Below, piece by piece: positions 18,001 through 24,000 of a stretch of DNA of 64,000 bases. Numbering within the stretch: position 1 is the stretch's first letter; each line of letters opens with the position of its first letter. Origin of the DNA: Mustelus asterias. Taxonomy: Eukaryota. The position numbers were made by a program. The stretch covers positions 57,908,001 through 57,972,000 of the forward strand of contig NC_135814.1 in NCBI RefSeq assembly GCF_964213995.1. The letters run 5' to 3'.

Positions 18001-21000
18001 CTAACCGATGACTGCCATAGTCCGGTTGGGGTTTCAACCTATGAAAGACGCCATTTTGTTCGACGGGACCAAATGTGGGAGCTGAATAAATCAATGCATT
18101 GATATCCTATTTAGGAGAGGCGGAATAAACAAGATCTCGACAAGGCACTGAACTTCTAGCATTCCAACCAGGACGCTGACGAAAGATGCAATATCATAAC
18201 CAAATCAGAAATTGTAGAAGATAAAGAAATGATAGCCGATTGAAACACGTTGTTTAGGATTTTATTTCCTTTTGCATTTCGCTCAGAGGTTCACAATAGT
18301 TTATCACCATTTGTGGCTTTAAAAACGAATATGGTTAAAACCCAACACTATTCCATTACCTTTAGGTAGGATGTCTGTGTAAAATTCTCCGTCAAATAAC
18401 ACACATCAAACTTGCCTAAATATATTTAAAACATGTACAGCATTGATGCTGGTGGGAGTCATGTTGATATTTTAAAATGACATGCATTTCTTCACCCAAA
18501 ACAATCTGAATGAGTCAAGAATTAATGTAGCAAGCGGATATAGTCCCATGTAATAAGTAACTGCTGAATAAGATCTATCCTGTTGAACAATTGCCAGAAA
18601 TTTGATCTAAAAGTTCCTGTATTTTTTAAAACACACACTCGTAGTATTTATCAACTTCAGCGATTAAATCTATTGAGCATGCTATTGAGGAGAAACAACA
18701 TGCATCACAATCTAAGCTAGAAATTCACCAGTTACTTCGAAGGCAAGGTGCAATTTATCTTTCTGTTTGAGAAGGGGGAACACACGTGCTTTCCAAAAGT
18801 CTCCCTGCAGCGTCAGTAGGGCAAAGAATAGCGCACTACTTAGAAAAATAAGTAGCTTCTGAATCCTGAACAAACCCACGCAATGTTTGTTAGCAAGGAG
18901 GATGTGCTTCGAAACGCCCACGGTCCACATTTGTAATGTCCAATAAATATTTAATTTTTTGACATTCTTACTTTCGTGTATTTAATTTCCAGAAAAAAAA
19001 TAGCCTTGTGTGCACATTCTGAACAAAAATGTCTGCTTTATTCAAGTGAGACACGACCATGCGTTTAATGATCAATGGCTTGAGGAGTCCTTGGTAGGTC
19101 GTTTTCAAATTGTAGGATCAACTGTCAGTATATTAAAGTTCCAAAGGGAATGTGGTGATTAGATTCTGATATTTATAAGAAGGTCGTAAATGCAGTTAAT
19201 TCCGTGTATTCGTTCATTATGTATCTTTAGAACCATGAGTACAGGTCAAATTGCTAAACCTCTGCACGTAATTCCGAATTTCACTTTCGCATGGGATGAA
19301 AACTTTTCTGTAGACATATCTATAGTAGTTGGACTTCATACAGCGTTCCCTCTGCATACTAAGGCCGGTCAAATTAGTTATACGCTCATTTAGTTTTTTC
19401 TTCATGCATGTGTTGTGTTATGGTTCCACTATAGCGAGGTCATGCCAGCAAAACTCAATCGCAGTAACAAGTGACACTTTAACCCTGCATAAATTATGAA
19501 GTTTATGCTTCCACCAACAGTACAACGCACTGTACGTTTTCCAAAAAAAATGAAGCATCCCGCCCTAAAATAGGGCGAGTTTTGTTTTTTTTCATGTTTC
19601 CAGTAATAAACAGCAGCTCTCCACGAACCCGTGAGCAAAGGATCACGTGACGGCAAAATCAGTCATTATATTTCATTTTTATGTTGGGCAACTGTCTGCT
19701 GTATTTACAGCTAATATTTCCGTTTGTTCTGCAAAAATAATGGCTCTAAACGTGCAATTGTAAATGAAAAGGAAGGCTAATTTGGAATTTGAAACAACGC
19801 ACTAACACATAAGGAGTTCTGCTGAAAGACTTGCAGCTCTGTCTGGATGCATAGCTGTCAGTGGGGTATTGTTAAGAGTTCATCAATCATGAAATCTGCA
19901 CTTTTCCCTCGACAGCAGTTCCTCCTTCTTTAAAGCAAGCCCAGGCCAGCTGGGATCCCTCCAGCAACCGCTGCCAAAGCGGACAAATGCAAAAGCGAAT
20001 CACACACCAGTCTAATCACACCACAGACGAAACCTCCTGTATGACTAACCTTCGAGAAATCTGGCGTCTAACTGCGATCCCTCGTTACTGCTCGTTAAAG
20101 AGGGTAAAACGTTTCAAGGGCACCAGAAATCTTGGCTCAGCTGAGTATGCTATGTGTGCTTAAATTATTGTCATGTATGACTGCATTTGTGGTATTGGGT
20201 CACTTACGTTAACCTTCTAAAACATGTCACTAATAGATGTGTTTTCATAGGAATCCCTGATGTATAAAAACCCGTACATTATATTTTATTTACAACCCCA
20301 TATTTCCTCTTGTCAATTCACAGAACAGTTAATGGAGAGCTAATATAGTTGCTAGCACGGTAGGTCTAGTGCAATGGCTGTCATTTTTGGAATATAACCC
20401 ACACTTGATGCCTTAAGGTGCAGCCTTATTTGCAAATTTAGAATGGTTAACCGCACTTCCCACAAAAATCAAGCGATAGAGAAGTTAGTTCAACGACAAT
20501 CCTGGGATTCCTGACAAGTTGCAAAATGCAAAGCAACCTTGCCACTTGCCTGGCTATTTAATTTCGAGACTGCCCCTTTTATCTCTAGAGATCGAAGTGC
20601 ACCACCATCAACATCATCACCACCACAACCCCCTCCCCCACATCCACACATACATTCTTATATGCTACAGGCTTAAGATAAAAACTAACCTCGCGAAAAT
20701 TGAGGGTTTAATCAGGGAAGCGTATAAAATTGGTTATTGCAAAAAGAAATTCCAAGTAACAGGATAATCTTGATGTTTACTAGCCCCGAATCATTAGTCC
20801 GCTATTGCCAGAATGCCTCTATCCCTTTTGCTCTAGACTCGTGGCGGTCTAACACCAAGTAAACAGATAAGTTTTGATTGTGAATTTGAGGAAAGTGCCG
20901 TCCCTTTCAAATCCAGAAGCTCACACAGATTTGGGAATATTTTCACACGCTACTGCAGTGAATCTGCACCTTCTGCAGGCCTGTCTCTAATTGACAATGC

Positions 21001-24000
21001 ATTCTTCAGTTATTGTCCCCCAAGCTGTCTAAATCAGCTGATCTAGTTGCAGAATTGGTGGCAACTAGGTGCAGGAGGAATTCCAGAAAGAGATTGGTCG
21101 AATTGCTTTTTATAAAGAATAGTTAAGTGTTTAGAGAAGTAAGTAAATATGTGGGACTGTCACCGTTCACTCTTTACAAAACTATACTAAAGTGCGATGA
21201 AAATTAAACACGCCTTCACATGACTGCCTATGCCTGTTCATTTAAGTAATTAGTCAAGATTGCAAAGAAGTGTTAGCTGTCGCTGTCAAAAGAAAGCAAC
21301 GTTCCAATTAACTTCCTTTATTATTTTGGCGTGGAACACGTGAACCTCAGAAGAAACTTTGGAACTCGGAATGAGTTGATTTTATATTTATAAATTCCAC
21401 GTCAGCAAACAACAGTGGTAATTGGAAAAATATTTGATCTTTCCGATTAGGAATTGCAGCACGTTTGTTCATGCATGCACATGTTTGGAAATGACCATCT
21501 CAACTCTGAGCACATTCTTTAGGCCATTTGTTTTGCTCACTGTACAGACCTATATTTTGAGTGCGATAGCAACATAAGTGAACTTGCTGTGGATGACTGT
21601 TCCAGCCAGGCGCTCAATTAAACGCCCACCAATGATCAGCATCCGATTTCAAAGGAGAAAAGTAAACGCTAAATAGTTAGAAACAAAGTTCTGCTCTTTA
21701 AAAAAAAAACAATATCTGCTTTTGAGAAACACAACGAAAAGGCCTAAATATTGTGATTTTTAAAATATTTAAGTTGAATAATGCCCAATATATTAATCAC
21801 ATACTGCTGTTAACACCTTATTAGGAAAAAAGAGATTTACACTTATAATGCTGCATATATCCTTCAAAGTAACACTGCAAAGATATATGTTAGCAAAACA
21901 CCCAAAGACAAGGGCAATGCAAATGAGAAGGCGGGATGCAGTGTTGAATTAGCTATGCAGAAATTTTAGCCATTTGCAAACCCAGTGTATGCTTTCAAAG
22001 CCCTCAAACTCACTTCCCTCTGAATTATACATAACACGGCTTTTCACGATCAGATTCAGCATGCTGACCGCAAAATGAATGGGAAGGACTTTGATAAGAT
22101 GTACCTTTGACTCAAGCAGGAGAGCAGCAACACAAACATTATTACTCAAGATTCAATTGCGAGGGAACACAAGAGAGAGAGTACAAGCTCGGTTGATGCC
22201 CACTTAAAAATCGAACTGGAGCAGCAGGATTTCGATTAGAAACGCCGAAAGAGATAATCAAACATCGAAAGAACAGGCATACTGTGCTGTAGATATAGAT
22301 TTTAGATTTCGAATGCTACATACCGAATATATATTTTCAATCCTTTCTATGATTGAATAAATTTATTTCAAACTACTCTAATGCTATGTTTTAACATATG
22401 CACGAGGTAATGACACGGCACCTAACAAGCTGCTCATTTGAATTAGACTGCACACTGCCCCTGGCGATTAAAAAGAGCAAGTCTTCATGTGCTTTACTCA
22501 CACAGATCAACTGACTGAGTTAGAGCTTCGCCAGTGAGTGTTTTGACAGGTAAATGACTCTAACTCGGCTGCTATCACGGAAGTATACCAAGATGAAATA
22601 ATATTTAGTAACGCATTAACCAAATAAATCAGAATATTTAAACTGATTTATCGATTTACCGAAACGATTGCAATTGTTCGGATGGGAAGTTTGGGACTGT
22701 GCAGTTTGGGAACTTGTTTTTCCAACATTTCATTTGATCTGTGTTTTAATTCATTTTTTAACGTAGCTTAAACATTTCCTACAGCACAGATCGAGCAGGG
22801 CAGAAGGCGAATCAGAATTAGCAAGGACCAATACTGGGGAGTGAAAGAAACAACTCACTGGCGTTAACATAGAATATCTTACCTTTGACTTCAGTATTTT
22901 CAGTTATATAGTTATTTTAATAACTTTGATCACTTTAAAAACATTTACGGAATGTTACAACGTTCTTTGCTATTAATGATAATTGACAGGGTGCCGATTG
23001 AGGAGCGAGGAAGCTTTCTATTCTGGCAAGAGGATTATCCGCGTGTTCTACTTGTTTTAACACCATTCAGTAGTCTTAGTGCTAACATTTGTAAAATCAC
23101 CGGGACAAGCAGTCGCACTTTACATGTTTGCTAAACAGTTCAAAATTCTAACACTGTCATAAACATCTCACTTTGTGAAACTCTTTATGGACATGATTAT
23201 TCTGTCGGTTAATATTACCTTCCGGAGAAATTAGCACCTCTGAGAAGGTAATTACAGTAGACGTTTACTTGCGGTATTCTATAAACTCTACACCGAGGGA
23301 GGGACCAGGAGCAGTGCCATGAACTCAACTTCAGAAACCAGGTAAATAACCATTTGCTTTATCCTTTCGCGCGCTCTCTCCATTCTGGATTTGCTGATGC
23401 TGTGACGATCGTCAAGGCCAGGAAACACTTAAGTCACCTTGTAGCCTCATTCGATGATCACTGCATCATAAAATCGCCAAGGCTCCTGACAGCAGACTGT
23501 GAGCCTTTACAGTTAGCGCCACCATCACACAACTCAGACCTCCTTATTCTGCAGCACGAAAAGGGATATCTTACCTTAGGACGGGCTTTCGGAGGATGGT
23601 CCGCAGTGTGAGTAAGGTTAGCGAACGCCTCTACTAACTGTGCTGATGATGTGATGTTAATAGATGGTGAGAGCATTGCAGCGCCCACTCCCCTCGGCGG
23701 CTGAGCGAAAAGCTCCGGACGCCATGGAATAGCGCTGGCTGAGACCGCAGTGATTGGATGGGCACAACCACGTGACTTCCTTGCTCTATATTAGGAATAT
23801 TTACTTCCTTTGCGAAGGAAGTGAAGGATCTGCTATGGTGATCAGGGATAGACAGCTATCAGCGAGAGCTAAACAGCCCATTCTGCTCCAGCCCATCATT
23901 GGAAGAATGAACTCTTACTTAGAATACATTCCCAGTGCAGACATTCTGACCTTTTCGCCAAAGTTTTGTCACAGTAACTCTCCAGCAGTCTCCCTGCAGC

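What the first reader, a model, noticed from the sequence alone, without database searches (positions are those of the whole stretch)
18040..21200. Hidden tandem duplicate of hoxd2: a fossil Hox gene between hoxd2 and hoxd1
Many landmarks of the hoxd2 locus recur 3.95-4.14 kb downstream in the same order. They include the YY1 16-mer, the promoter 22-mer (19/22 identical) and exon 1 (NLEFE; SSSIMKSAL..STAVPPSLKQ..SWD versus SSSIKNSTL..STLIPPPFEQ..SLD). Also matching are gac(g)aaacctc and gagaaa around the erased YPWM (both +4107), a donor-like site at 20104, and at least five exon-2 patches at +4119 to +4137. There is a stop at 19803, frameshifts and no intact homeobox. Tandem gene duplication inside jawed-vertebrate Hox clusters is considered very rare, and I know of no description of this relic.
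Basis: partly seen in the sequence, partly recalled or inferred. Interest (0 to 1): 0.9.

Follow-up and report, generated by a model that had tools for sequence, protein, structure and literature searches.

The report
Fossil HoxD2 duplicate in a shark
About 4 kb downstream of an intact shark HoxD2 gene lie the badly eroded remains of a second copy of that gene's front end; it no longer codes for anything, and its best-kept piece contains a known Hox-Pbx control site, so it may survive as a regulatory switch.

Summary
The window is the 3' end of a shark HoxD cluster: Hox3, HoxD2 and Hox1, then LINE debris. An 87-bp stretch of HoxD2 exon 1 (15767-15851) recurs at 19872-19955 with 63 of 87 columns identical. 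0 of 200 shuffles reach its score. It is the best non-homeobox match in the window, and the match is reciprocal. Two further matches lie in the same order on the same diagonal: an exact 16-mer (+3950) and a 19/22 element just 5' of the gene (+4141). No other diagonal band, and no shuffle, holds two such matches.

No homeobox remnant is detectable by DNA, protein or profile search.

So this is a non-coding remnant of a local, probably tandem, HoxD2 duplication. Only its 5' part is demonstrable.

The island holds, unchanged, the decanucleotide TGATTGATGA, the Hox-Pbx response element shown experimentally in Hoxa2 exon 1. A CTGTCA hexamer lies 19 nt away. Uniform neutral decay fits the pattern poorly (joint pattern in 0-1 of 300 simulations at each of six rates tested). 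I favour retention as a cis-regulatory element. Conservation in other species could not be tested here.

The parts
15673..16018 (+). HoxD2 exon 1 (parent copy, intact). ATG at 15673, donor GT at 16019.
   Evidence: ORF and sequence. The 115-aa translation is 98% identical to a Heterodontus francisci protein and 92% to Callorhinchus milii 'HoxD2'.
16407..17155 (+). HoxD2 exon 2 (parent copy, intact), with homeobox; the stop codon ends at 17155.
   Evidence: 248 aa align without gaps and end to end: 227/248 with the Heterodontus protein, 191/241 with C. milii HoxD2. Homeodomain motif found.
14099..14114 (+). Island 1, parent copy: 16-mer 1.57 kb upstream of the HoxD2 ATG. It contains GCCATTTT; the YY1-like label is recalled, not tested.
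   Evidence: Exact repeat, found only at these two places in the window.
18049..18064 (+). Island 1, relic copy (offset +3950).
   Evidence: 16/16 identical.
15500..15521 (+). Island 2, parent copy: 22-mer 152 nt upstream of the ATG (promoter or 5'UTR; the transcription start is not known).
19641..19662 (+). Island 2, relic copy (offset +4141), 19/22 identical. It carries CACGTG where the parent has CATGTG.
15767..15851 (+). Island 3, parent copy: codons 32-60 of HoxD2 exon 1.
19872..19955 (+). Island 3, relic copy (offset +4105): 63/87 columns identical, 4 gap events, reading frame broken.
15775..15784 (-). TGATTGATGA in the parent exon 1. It is the same decanucleotide as the Hoxa2 exonic Hox-Pbx response element.
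   Evidence: PMC2425489 section 11.
19880..19889 (-). TGATTGATGA in the relic, 10/10 retained. It lies inside the longest identical run of the island (13 nt).
19855..19860 (+). CTGTCA (MEIS/PREP consensus hexamer), 19 nt from the relic's Hox-Pbx site. The parent has no such hexamer within 40 nt of its own site.
   Evidence: Consensus and the 40-bp rule are taken from PMC4489388 passages.
17550..21800 (+). Inferred full extent of the second duplication unit. Only 18049-19955 is demonstrable.
   Evidence: Inference from the offsets: 3921 (weak A-rich match 13683/17604), 3950, 4141, 4105 and 4270 (weak A-rich match). The two outer matches are not significant.
23907..25239 (+). Downstream Hox1-type gene, HoxD1 by position. 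Exon 1 runs from the ATG at 23907; the homeobox exon lies within 24832-25239.
   Evidence: ORFs and homeodomain. Horn-shark gene order HoxD3-HoxD2-HoxD1 comes from a PMC3509897 passage. Not searched by name.

Best explanation
A segment of about 4 kb carrying HoxD2 was once duplicated in tandem within the shark HoxD cluster. The upstream copy is today's intact HoxD2. The downstream copy lost its coding function and has decayed almost beyond recognition.

Three pieces of its 5' part survive, in the original order and with roughly the original spacing:
- a 16-mer about 1.6 kb upstream;
- a 22-mer just 5' of the gene;
- 85-87 nt of exon 1.

The exon-1 piece is kept better than its neighbours. I think this is because it holds a Hox-Pbx response element (TGATTGATGA) and, in the relic, a MEIS/PREP hexamer 19 nt away. 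Hox group 1/2 proteins with Pbx and Meis/Prep would bind there and feed auto- or cross-regulation of HoxD2 and/or HoxD1 in hindbrain and pharyngeal arches.

Shown: the sequence homology, the colinearity, the loss of coding capacity, the identity of the motif and the uneven decay.
Inferred: that the whole gene was copied, that selection preserved the islands, and that any factor binds.

My odds: duplication-derived homology about 0.85; a whole-gene tandem unit about 0.55; regulatory retention about 0.4.
For: HOMOLOGY
- 63/87 identity, E 1.6e-7 to 2.2e-6. 0 of 200 shuffles and no reversed-sequence hit reach the score. The match is a reciprocal best hit.
- Three colinear anchors in one diagonal band. 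No other of about 171 bands, and 0 of 200 shuffles, has two.
- Spacings: 1385 versus 1576 nt between islands 1 and 2, and 245 versus 209 nt between islands 2 and 3 (segment lengths).
- Two anchors lie in non-coding DNA upstream of HoxD2. The source was therefore genomic DNA of this locus, not an mRNA.

NOT CODING
- The pieces lie in three frames, with a stop at 19803.
- Differences are spread evenly over codon positions: 6/27, 5/28, 8/27. Transitions 10, transversions 9.
- No Pfam match.

GEOMETRY
- The offset of about 4 kb spans the whole HoxD2 unit, so a simple tandem event must have copied exon 2 as well (inference).
- Loss of a detectable homeobox needs only somewhat more decay than the island shows. 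With 35-40% substitutions, 0.08 indels per site and saturated third positions, 83-100 of 200 simulations fall to the observed score.

UNEVEN DECAY
- With island-like decay, the N-terminal 94 nt of exon 1 would score 43 +/- 8. The observed score is 7, and 0 of 300 simulations are that low.
- Under uniform decay at six rates from 0.20 to 0.45, the joint pattern (island kept, N-terminus and homeobox lost) arises in 0, 0, 1, 0, 0 and 0 of 300 runs.

MOTIFS
- TGATTGATGA occurs twice in 64 kb, in the parent exon 1 and in the relic.
- In mouse Hoxa2, mutating this decanucleotide impaired Hoxa1/Hoxa2-driven reporter activation, and the site was needed for rhombomere-4 activity together with intronic sites (PMC2425489, abstract and section 11).
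- The relic's pair is the only PBX-HOX + CTGTCA pair with a gap <=40 nt in the window, among 16 PBX-HOX and 48 MEIS/PREP matches. In that study the syntax predicted hindbrain enhancers in 67/75 conserved elements (PMC4489388 abstract).
- Catshark HoxD2 is reported as expressed in pharyngeal arches and hindbrain (PMC3707753 passage).
Against: - Only about 125 nt of about 4 kb is recognisable, in one genome.
- Exon 2, the intron and the rest of exon 1 give nothing above chance. A whole-gene copy is therefore not shown.
- The motif evidence is weak taken alone. Full retention of a given 10-mer at the island's identity has p about 0.07 (my arithmetic: 0.77^10).
- About one PBX-HOX/MEIS pair is expected in 64 kb by chance (16 x 48 x about 92 / 64000). 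8 of 100 shuffles hold two copies of the decanucleotide.
- The uneven decay could come from deletion and replacement of the flanks, or from a later conversion patch. My simulations assume that the parent's N-terminal DNA did not change.
- Conservation in other species, chromatin state, binding and expression are all untested.
- The relic's 95-aa open frame has no relative in two protein libraries, so there is no cross-species handle.
Confidence: 0.45

Rival explanations
1. Same ancient duplication, but a purely neutral fossil. The three islands are the luckiest survivors, the rest was scrambled by substitutions and indels, and nothing is functional.
For: - The duplicate-derived homology is as in the best explanation.
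- No coding signature.
- Each motif coincidence has p about 0.07 (and my arithmetic).
- A homeobox becomes undetectable with only moderately higher decay.
- We see only the best-preserved windows, which is an ascertainment effect.
Against: - Uniform decay reproduces the joint pattern in 0-1 of 300 simulations at each of six rates.
- An exact 16-mer with two CpGs survives in non-coding DNA whose surroundings show no similarity at all (z = 0.02 over 1.4 kb).
- The longest identical run of the island coincides with an experimentally defined binding site.
Confidence: 0.3
2. There was never a whole second gene. Either only the 5' region (upstream DNA, promoter, part of exon 1) was copied and inserted downstream, or short patches were transferred from HoxD2 by gene conversion into pre-existing intergenic DNA.
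For: - All three significant matches lie in the 5' 1.75 kb.
- Nothing from the intron, exon 2 or 3'UTR is above chance.
- A later conversion patch would explain why the island is better preserved than its flanks.
Against: - A simple tandem event with a 4-kb offset necessarily includes exon 2 (geometry; inference).
- An insertional copy placed at just the distance of one gene length would be a coincidence.
- Conversion needs flanking homology, which is absent now.
- Three separate patches in the right order with similar spacing fit one contiguous copy better than three transfers.
Confidence: 0.15
3. No common descent. The matches are convergent binding sites or chance.
For: Taken singly, the 16-mer and the 22-mer score no higher than the best hit of an average shuffle (25.4 bits against a mean maximum of 26.3).
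Against: - The 87-nt, 72% match beats all 200 shuffles and the reversed control. It is far longer than any binding site.
- Three hits in one diagonal band were never seen in controls.
- The exact 16-mer extends beyond any YY1-type core.
Confidence: 0.04
4. A processed (retroposed) pseudogene of a group-2 Hox mRNA landed there.
For: Exon-1 sequence without a recognisable intron or exon 2 nearby.
Against: - Matches to DNA 152 nt and 1.57 kb upstream of the ATG keep genomic spacing.
- No homeobox lies directly 3' of the exon-1 piece, as a spliced copy would require.
- No specific poly(A)-type end was found.
Confidence: 0.02

Closest known systems
Exonic Hox-Pbx response element (HRE) in the ultraconserved 5' coding region of Hoxa2 (Lampe et al. 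2008, PMC2425489; abstract, passages and section 11 read)
   Same: The decanucleotide TGATTGATGA is identical, and in the parent HoxD2 it sits at the same place in exon 1 (the codons for SSSI). The relic island covers coding nt 95-179 of the parent. It ends within 3 nt of where the mouse element is said to end (first 182 nt of the coding frame).
   Different: The relic copy is non-coding, lies in an intergenic interval of the HoxD cluster, and has its own CTGTCA 19 nt away. The Hoxa2 element works together with intronic sites. No function has been tested for either HoxD copy.
Medaka psi-hoxa2b, a group-2 Hox pseudogene that keeps active cis-regulatory elements (Davis et al. 2016, PMC5831782; abstract and outline read)
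   Same: A dead group-2 Hox gene whose regulatory DNA outlives its coding function.
   Different: psi-hoxa2b descends from a whole-genome duplication, is still recognisable as a gene, and is transcribed. The shark relic is a within-cluster copy next to its parent, and only fragments remain.
In-cluster Hox pseudogenes of cartilaginous fishes (two Hox14 pseudogenes of the elephant shark; PMC3707753 passage)
   Same: Decayed Hox genes left in place within a chondrichthyan cluster.
   Different: Those are remnants of ancestral paralogues, one per cluster position. They are not extra tandem copies.
Lineage-specific tandem Hox duplicates outside jawed vertebrates (Oikopleura Hox9a/b, amphioxus posterior genes; PMC3707753 passages)
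   Same: Local duplication of a Hox gene inside or beside a cluster.
   Different: Those copies are intact genes in invertebrate chordates. Here the copy is dead, and the host is a jawed vertebrate.
PBX-HOX + MEIS/PREP 'hb_40' hindbrain enhancer syntax (Grice et al. 2015, PMC4489388; abstract and passages read)
   Same: TGATNNATKR and CTGTCA separated by 19 nt, within the 40-nt limit.
   Different: The published predictor was applied to evolutionarily conserved elements. Conservation of this one is unknown, and about one such pair is expected in 64 kb by chance.

Membership tests
Functional group-2 Hox gene | Open reading frame through exon 1 with the group-2 N-terminus | tested here: not met
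   The pieces lie in three frames with a stop at 19803. The N-terminal 94 nt are unrecognisable.
Functional group-2 Hox gene | Hexapeptide (YPWM) and homeobox | tested here: not met
   No WFQNRR in 17.2-24.9 kb. No blastn hit. No homeodomain hit from tblastn with 120 group-2 proteins. No homeodomain hit from a profile of 100 of those proteins against 361 six-frame pieces.
Unprocessed (duplication-derived) pseudogene of HoxD2 | Significant similarity to the parent's exon sequence | tested here: met
   63/87, E 1.6e-7; 0 of 200 shuffles reach the score.
Unprocessed (duplication-derived) pseudogene of HoxD2 | Similarity extends into the parent's non-transcribed or upstream DNA, colinear with the exon match | tested here: met
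   The 16-mer and the 22-mer lie in the same diagonal band. No control band or shuffle has two such hits.
Unprocessed (duplication-derived) pseudogene of HoxD2 | Remnants of the remaining exons and the intron in order | tested here: not met
   Intron, exon 2 and 3'UTR are at chance. Simulations show this does not exclude an old whole-gene copy.
Unprocessed (duplication-derived) pseudogene of HoxD2 | Closer to HoxD2 than to HoxA2 or HoxB2 | tested here: inconclusive
   The alignable peptide is identical in all group-2 proteins up to FEQ. Beyond that the relic shares D with chondrichthyan HoxD2 and P with batoid HoxD2 and with HoxA2. tblastn scores do not separate the groups. No DNA of the paralogues was available.
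Processed pseudogene (retrocopy) | No similarity upstream of the transcript; exons joined | tested here: not met
   The upstream anchors keep genomic spacing. No homeobox abuts the exon-1 piece.
Hoxa2-type exonic Hox-Pbx response element | Decanucleotide TGATTGATGA | tested here: met
   Exact at 19880-19889 and 15775-15784. The motif is taken from PMC2425489 section 11.
Hoxa2-type exonic Hox-Pbx response element | Bound and activated by group 1/2 Hox proteins with Pbx; needed for rhombomere-4 activity | not testable with these tools
   Needs EMSA or ChIP and reporter assays.
hb_40 hindbrain enhancer syntax | TGATNNATKR and CTGTCA no more than 40 nt apart | tested here: met
   The gap is 19 nt. 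It is the only such pair among 16 and 48 motif matches in the window.
hb_40 hindbrain enhancer syntax | Both motifs evolutionarily conserved | not testable with these tools

The most novel reading that the evidence does not exclude
After the two rounds of genome duplication, a jawed-vertebrate Hox cluster underwent a tandem duplication of a whole Hox gene (HoxD2). The extra copy died, but part of its first exon, its promoter element and an upstream element were exapted as a free-standing Hox-Pbx-Meis auto/cross-regulatory module between HoxD2 and HoxD1. That module is conserved across elasmobranchs, or across all cartilaginous fishes.
Probability: 0.3. Interest if true: 0.75.

Novelty: new variant of a known kind. 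Interest (0 to 1): 0.55.

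Why it matters
Jawed-vertebrate Hox clusters are usually described as changing by whole-cluster duplication and gene loss, not by local gene duplication. In the review I read (PMC3707753), the passages on tandem duplication that were returned concerned invertebrate chordates, ambulacrarians and the unresolved lamprey case. My searches found no report of a HoxD2 copy or pseudogene in sharks.

A demonstrable remnant of a tandem HoxD2 duplicate would show that such events did happen and were purged.

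If the exon-1 island is under selection, it would be a clean example of a coding-exon enhancer that outlived its gene. It would also give a simple way to test the non-coding function of the ultraconserved 5' end of group-2 Hox genes, free of the protein-coding constraint that confounds it in Hoxa2.

Tried and rejected
- Protein-level detection of the relic. tblastn with 120 group-2 proteins gives only E 0.06-0.3 hits at aa 45-74 against 19909-19995. The profile HMM ranks the relic frame first of 361 pieces, but at E 0.81. The frameshift splits the signal, so the DNA test is the valid one.
- Relic open frame 19876-20160. It has no candidate in the 5.8-billion-protein library at 52-167 aa. Against 1.84 billion representatives there is one hit: 582 aa, 30% identity, eight matched stretches, E 9.9e-9. 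That looks like a repeat or composition match, not an orthologue. It has no name, so I did not open or use it.
- 3'UTR match 17411-17465 / 21681-21734 and the A-rich match 13683/17604. They fit the geometry of a tandem unit. However, the A-rich partner region hits five or more other places at similar scores, so I do not count them.
- NLEFE, the aaacctc and gagaaa motifs, the donor-like GT and the exon-2 patches are at chance.
- Exact k-mer diagonal counts add nothing beyond the two long matches.
- Rfam: 0 families at gathering score in the whole window.
- Pfam: nothing for the two open frames in the relic interval.
- Placing the relic among HoxA2/B2/D2 by residues was uninformative.
- Retrocopy and pure-chance readings were rejected (see rivals).
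- The first free-end global alignment was a mis-setting and was discarded in favour.

Full report
WHAT THE WINDOW IS

The window has no N. Three homeoboxes lie on the + strand, at about 11.97, 16.60 and 25.06 kb. Their open frames show:
- a group-3 gene (exon 1 about 9.86-10.3 kb, exon 2 11.78-12.5 kb);
- a group-2 gene (exon 1 15673-16018, exon 2 16407-17155);
- a group-1 gene (ATG at 23907, homeobox exon within 24.83-25.24 kb).

From 38 kb onward there is reverse-transcriptase and esterase-type LINE debris.

I searched the group-2 gene exon by exon and left out the joined coding sequence.
- Exon 1 (115 aa) is 98% identical to a Heterodontus francisci protein and 97% to Pristiophorus japonicus and Carcharodon carcharias proteins. 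It is 92% identical to the Callorhinchus milii protein named HoxD2 and 87-91% to three batoid proteins (353 proteins at E <= 0.001 among 474 candidates, best 120 listed).
- Exon 2 (248 aa) aligns without gaps: 227/248 with the Heterodontus protein and 191/241 with C. milii HoxD2.

The window is therefore the HoxD3-HoxD2-HoxD1 end of a shark HoxD cluster. This is the gene order reported for horn shark (PMC3509897 passage). No hit is 100% identical, and I did not try to name the species. It is not human. The parent HoxD2 is intact.

I ran a sensitive blastn of 13.5-17.9 kb against 17.9-22.5 kb. The top hit is 15767-15851 versus 19872-19955, with 63 of 87 columns identical and E 1.6e-7.
- None of 200 dinucleotide shuffles of the target reaches its 46.8 bits (mean maximum 26.3, largest 36.8).
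- The reversed window gives at most 31.1 bits.
- Against the whole window it is the third-best non-self hit of the HoxD2 region, after the Hox3 and Hox1 homeoboxes.
- It is also the best non-self hit of the relic region. The match is reciprocal and is not part of a dispersed repeat.

The exact 16-mer (14099 / 18049, +3950) and the 19/22 element (15500 / 19641, +4141) each score only 25.4 bits. That is ordinary for a single hit. Both, however, fall in the same 400-nt diagonal band as the exon-1 match and in the same order.
- That band holds four hits of >=25.4 bits.
- Of about 171 other bands, 24 hold one and none holds two.
- Shuffles give 0.07 per band; 14 of 200 have one and 0 of 200 have two.

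The fourth hit (17411-17465 / 21681-21734) is A-rich, and its partner region matches several other places equally well. I drop it and count three anchors.

A global alignment of 15490-16040 with 19631-20130 is 298/469 identical, with z = 6.3 and 0 of 200 shuffles reaching the score. Its borders were chosen after I had seen the anchors.

WHAT IS NOT REAL

I tested seven segments between and beyond the anchors: upstream DNA, the 1.4 kb between the 16-mer and the 22-mer, the 5'UTR, the rest of exon 1, the intron, exon 2 and the 3' flank. None shows similarity.
- Global z is -0.88 to 1.26 against shuffles and -0.39 to 1.50 against real sequence from elsewhere in the window.
- Between 5 and 82 of 100 controls reach the observed scores.

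This compares with 9.96 +/- 3.40 in 1094 control bands, of which 827 reach 8. The same test is at chance for the homeobox, the intron, the 5'UTR, and exon 1 before and after the island.

They carry no statistical weight.

No homeobox remnant is found by:
- motif scan;
- blastn;
- tblastn with 120 group-2 proteins;
- a profile of 100 of those proteins against 361 six-frame pieces of 17.3-23.5 kb. There the best piece is the relic frame at E 0.81, matching profile positions 45-72.

WHAT IT IS

An 87-nt match at 72% identity is far longer than a binding site. Two further anchors lie in non-coding DNA upstream of HoxD2 and keep roughly their genomic spacing: 1385 versus 1576 nt and 245 versus 209 nt. 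Together these argue for common descent from genomic DNA of this locus. They argue against convergence and against a retrocopy.

The copy is dead.
- Its recognisable peptide pieces lie in three frames.
- The differences from the parent are spread evenly over codon positions: 6/27, 5/28 and 8/27, with 10 transitions and 9 transversions.

The offset of about 4 kb equals the length of the whole HoxD2 unit. A simple tandem event must therefore have included exon 2. That is inference from geometry. Two weak A-rich matches, at the presumed start (13683 / 17604) and end (17411 / 21681) of the units, fit it but are not significant.

The lack of a homeobox trace does not contradict a whole-gene copy. 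With 35-40% substitutions, 0.08 indels per site and saturated third positions in the parent, 83-100 of 200 simulated homeobox relics drop to the observed score.

WHY THE ISLAND SURVIVES

The decay is uneven.
- If the N-terminal 94 nt of exon 1 had decayed like the island, it would score 43 +/- 8 against the relic. It scores 7, and 0 of 300 simulations are that low. The encoded protein is invariant among the sharks (seen).
- The same holds for the rest of exon 1 and for exon 2.
- Under uniform decay at six rates (0.20-0.45 substitutions per site, indels in the island's proportion), the joint pattern of island kept and N-terminus and homeobox lost arises in 0, 0, 1, 0, 0 and 0 of 300 runs.

This points to one of three things: selection on the island, a later conversion patch, or deletion and replacement of the flanks.

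The island's longest identical run (13 nt) contains TGATTGATGA on the minus strand. The decanucleotide occurs twice in 64 kb, at 15775-15784 in HoxD2 exon 1 and at 19880-19889 in the relic. It is the Hox-Pbx response element that Lampe et al. found in the first exon of mouse Hoxa2.
- Mutating it impaired activation by Hoxa1 and Hoxa2.
- It was needed, together with intronic sites, for rhombomere-4 activity.
- It lies in a 205-bp ultraconserved element covering the first 182 nt of the coding frame (PMC2425489: abstract, passages and section 11).

The relic island corresponds to coding nt 95-179 of the parent.

The relic also has CTGTCA at 19855-19860, 19 nt from the site. The parent has no such hexamer within 40 nt. 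This pair is the only PBX-HOX (TGATNNATKR) plus MEIS/PREP (CTGTCA) pair with a gap <=40 nt in the window, among 16 and 48 single matches. It fits the syntax that predicted hindbrain enhancers in 67 of 75 conserved elements (PMC4489388 abstract and passages).

Taken singly, these coincidences are weak.
- A given 10-mer survives intact at the island's identity with p about 0.07.
- About one such motif pair is expected in 64 kb by chance.
- 8 of 100 shuffles carry the decanucleotide twice.

Catshark HoxD2 is reported to be expressed in hindbrain and pharyngeal arches (PMC3707753 passage). Those are the tissues where such elements act.

MECHANISM I COMMIT TO

A tandem duplication of HoxD2 was followed by death of the downstream copy. 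Its exon-1 Hox-Pbx element was retained, and perhaps also the 5'-proximal and upstream elements. It now acts as a non-coding module that binds group-1/2 Hox proteins with Pbx and Meis/Prep. It contributes to auto- or cross-regulation of HoxD2 and/or HoxD1.

My odds are about 0.85 for duplication-derived homology, 0.55 for a whole-gene tandem unit and 0.4 for regulatory retention.

The main rival is the same duplication with purely neutral survival (0.3). Next comes a 5'-only copy or conversion patches (0.15).

WHAT IS KNOWN

The closest described things are:
- the Hoxa2 exonic element itself;
- medaka psi-hoxa2b, a group-2 Hox pseudogene with active regulatory elements (PMC5831782 abstract);
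- the in-place Hox14 pseudogenes of elephant shark;
- tandem Hox duplicates in invertebrate chordates (PMC3707753 passages).

I found no report of a HoxD2 duplicate or pseudogene in cartilaginous fishes. The searches were:
- 5 papers;
- 5 papers, 4 listed;
- 4 papers;
- 67 papers, 12 listed;
-, also run.

I read passages of PMC5054437, PMC3707753 and PMC3509897. Subscription papers on shark HoxD clusters are outside the library.

Among the 120 listed hits, each chondrichthyan species contributes one HoxD2-type entry. No intact second copy is therefore annotated there.

WHAT STAYED UNCHECKED

- Conservation of the interval in other species.
- DNA of HoxA2 and HoxB2 from this genome.
- Expression, chromatin and binding.
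- The supplements of the two key papers.
- The one unnamed library hit to the relic frame, which I did not open.

VERDICT

The relic is real but much smaller than claimed. It is a decayed 5' remnant of a HoxD2 duplicate, and its best-kept core is a known Hox-Pbx element. The find is of moderate interest, and it would become considerably more interesting if the islands prove to be conserved across elasmobranchs.

Noticed in passing
window 15673, 19776, 23907: The HoxD2 ATG, the position in the relic that corresponds to it at the island's offset, and the Hox1 ATG are spaced almost evenly: 4103 and 4131 nt. This may be coincidence.
   Followed up: no
window 38000-64000: Dense, mostly broken LINE-type retrotransposon debris on both strands. 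Reverse transcriptase (RVT_1) at 61.0-62.1 kb; an ORF with a GDSL esterase domain at 63.16-63.97 kb. Many short frames share the same C-terminal motif. The Hox part of the window (1-26 kb) is free of it.
   Followed up: partly
window 20590-20650: A His- and Pro-coding CA/CC-rich simple sequence lies inside the relic interval, in an open frame at 20489-20767 with no Pfam match. It resembles 38072-38106 on the other strand (81% of 37 nt).
   Followed up: partly
window 20996-21082 and 22326-22367: Two imperfect palindromes: self matches on the opposite strand, 64% of 90 nt and 71% of 42 nt.
   Followed up: no
window 19100-23500: Eight of the ten CTGTCA/TGACAG hexamers found in 13.0-23.5 kb lie between the relic and Hox1. 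About five would be expected in the whole 10.5 kb.
   Followed up: no
one search hit list (P0008-P0010, P0049): Sturgeon, gar, bowfin and reedfish proteins labelled 'Hox-A2-like' match HoxD2 exon 1 at 58-71% identity. Three of them rank above all true HoxA2 proteins. HoxD2 therefore seems to survive in non-teleost ray-finned fishes. A 2011 review still called it specific to cartilaginous fishes; a 2013 review already notes bichir.
   Followed up: no
window 19644-19651 versus 15503-15510: Within the 22-mer the relic has the palindromic TCACGTGA, whereas the intact gene has TCATGTGA. The dead copy thus keeps the canonical E-box with its CpG.
   Followed up: no
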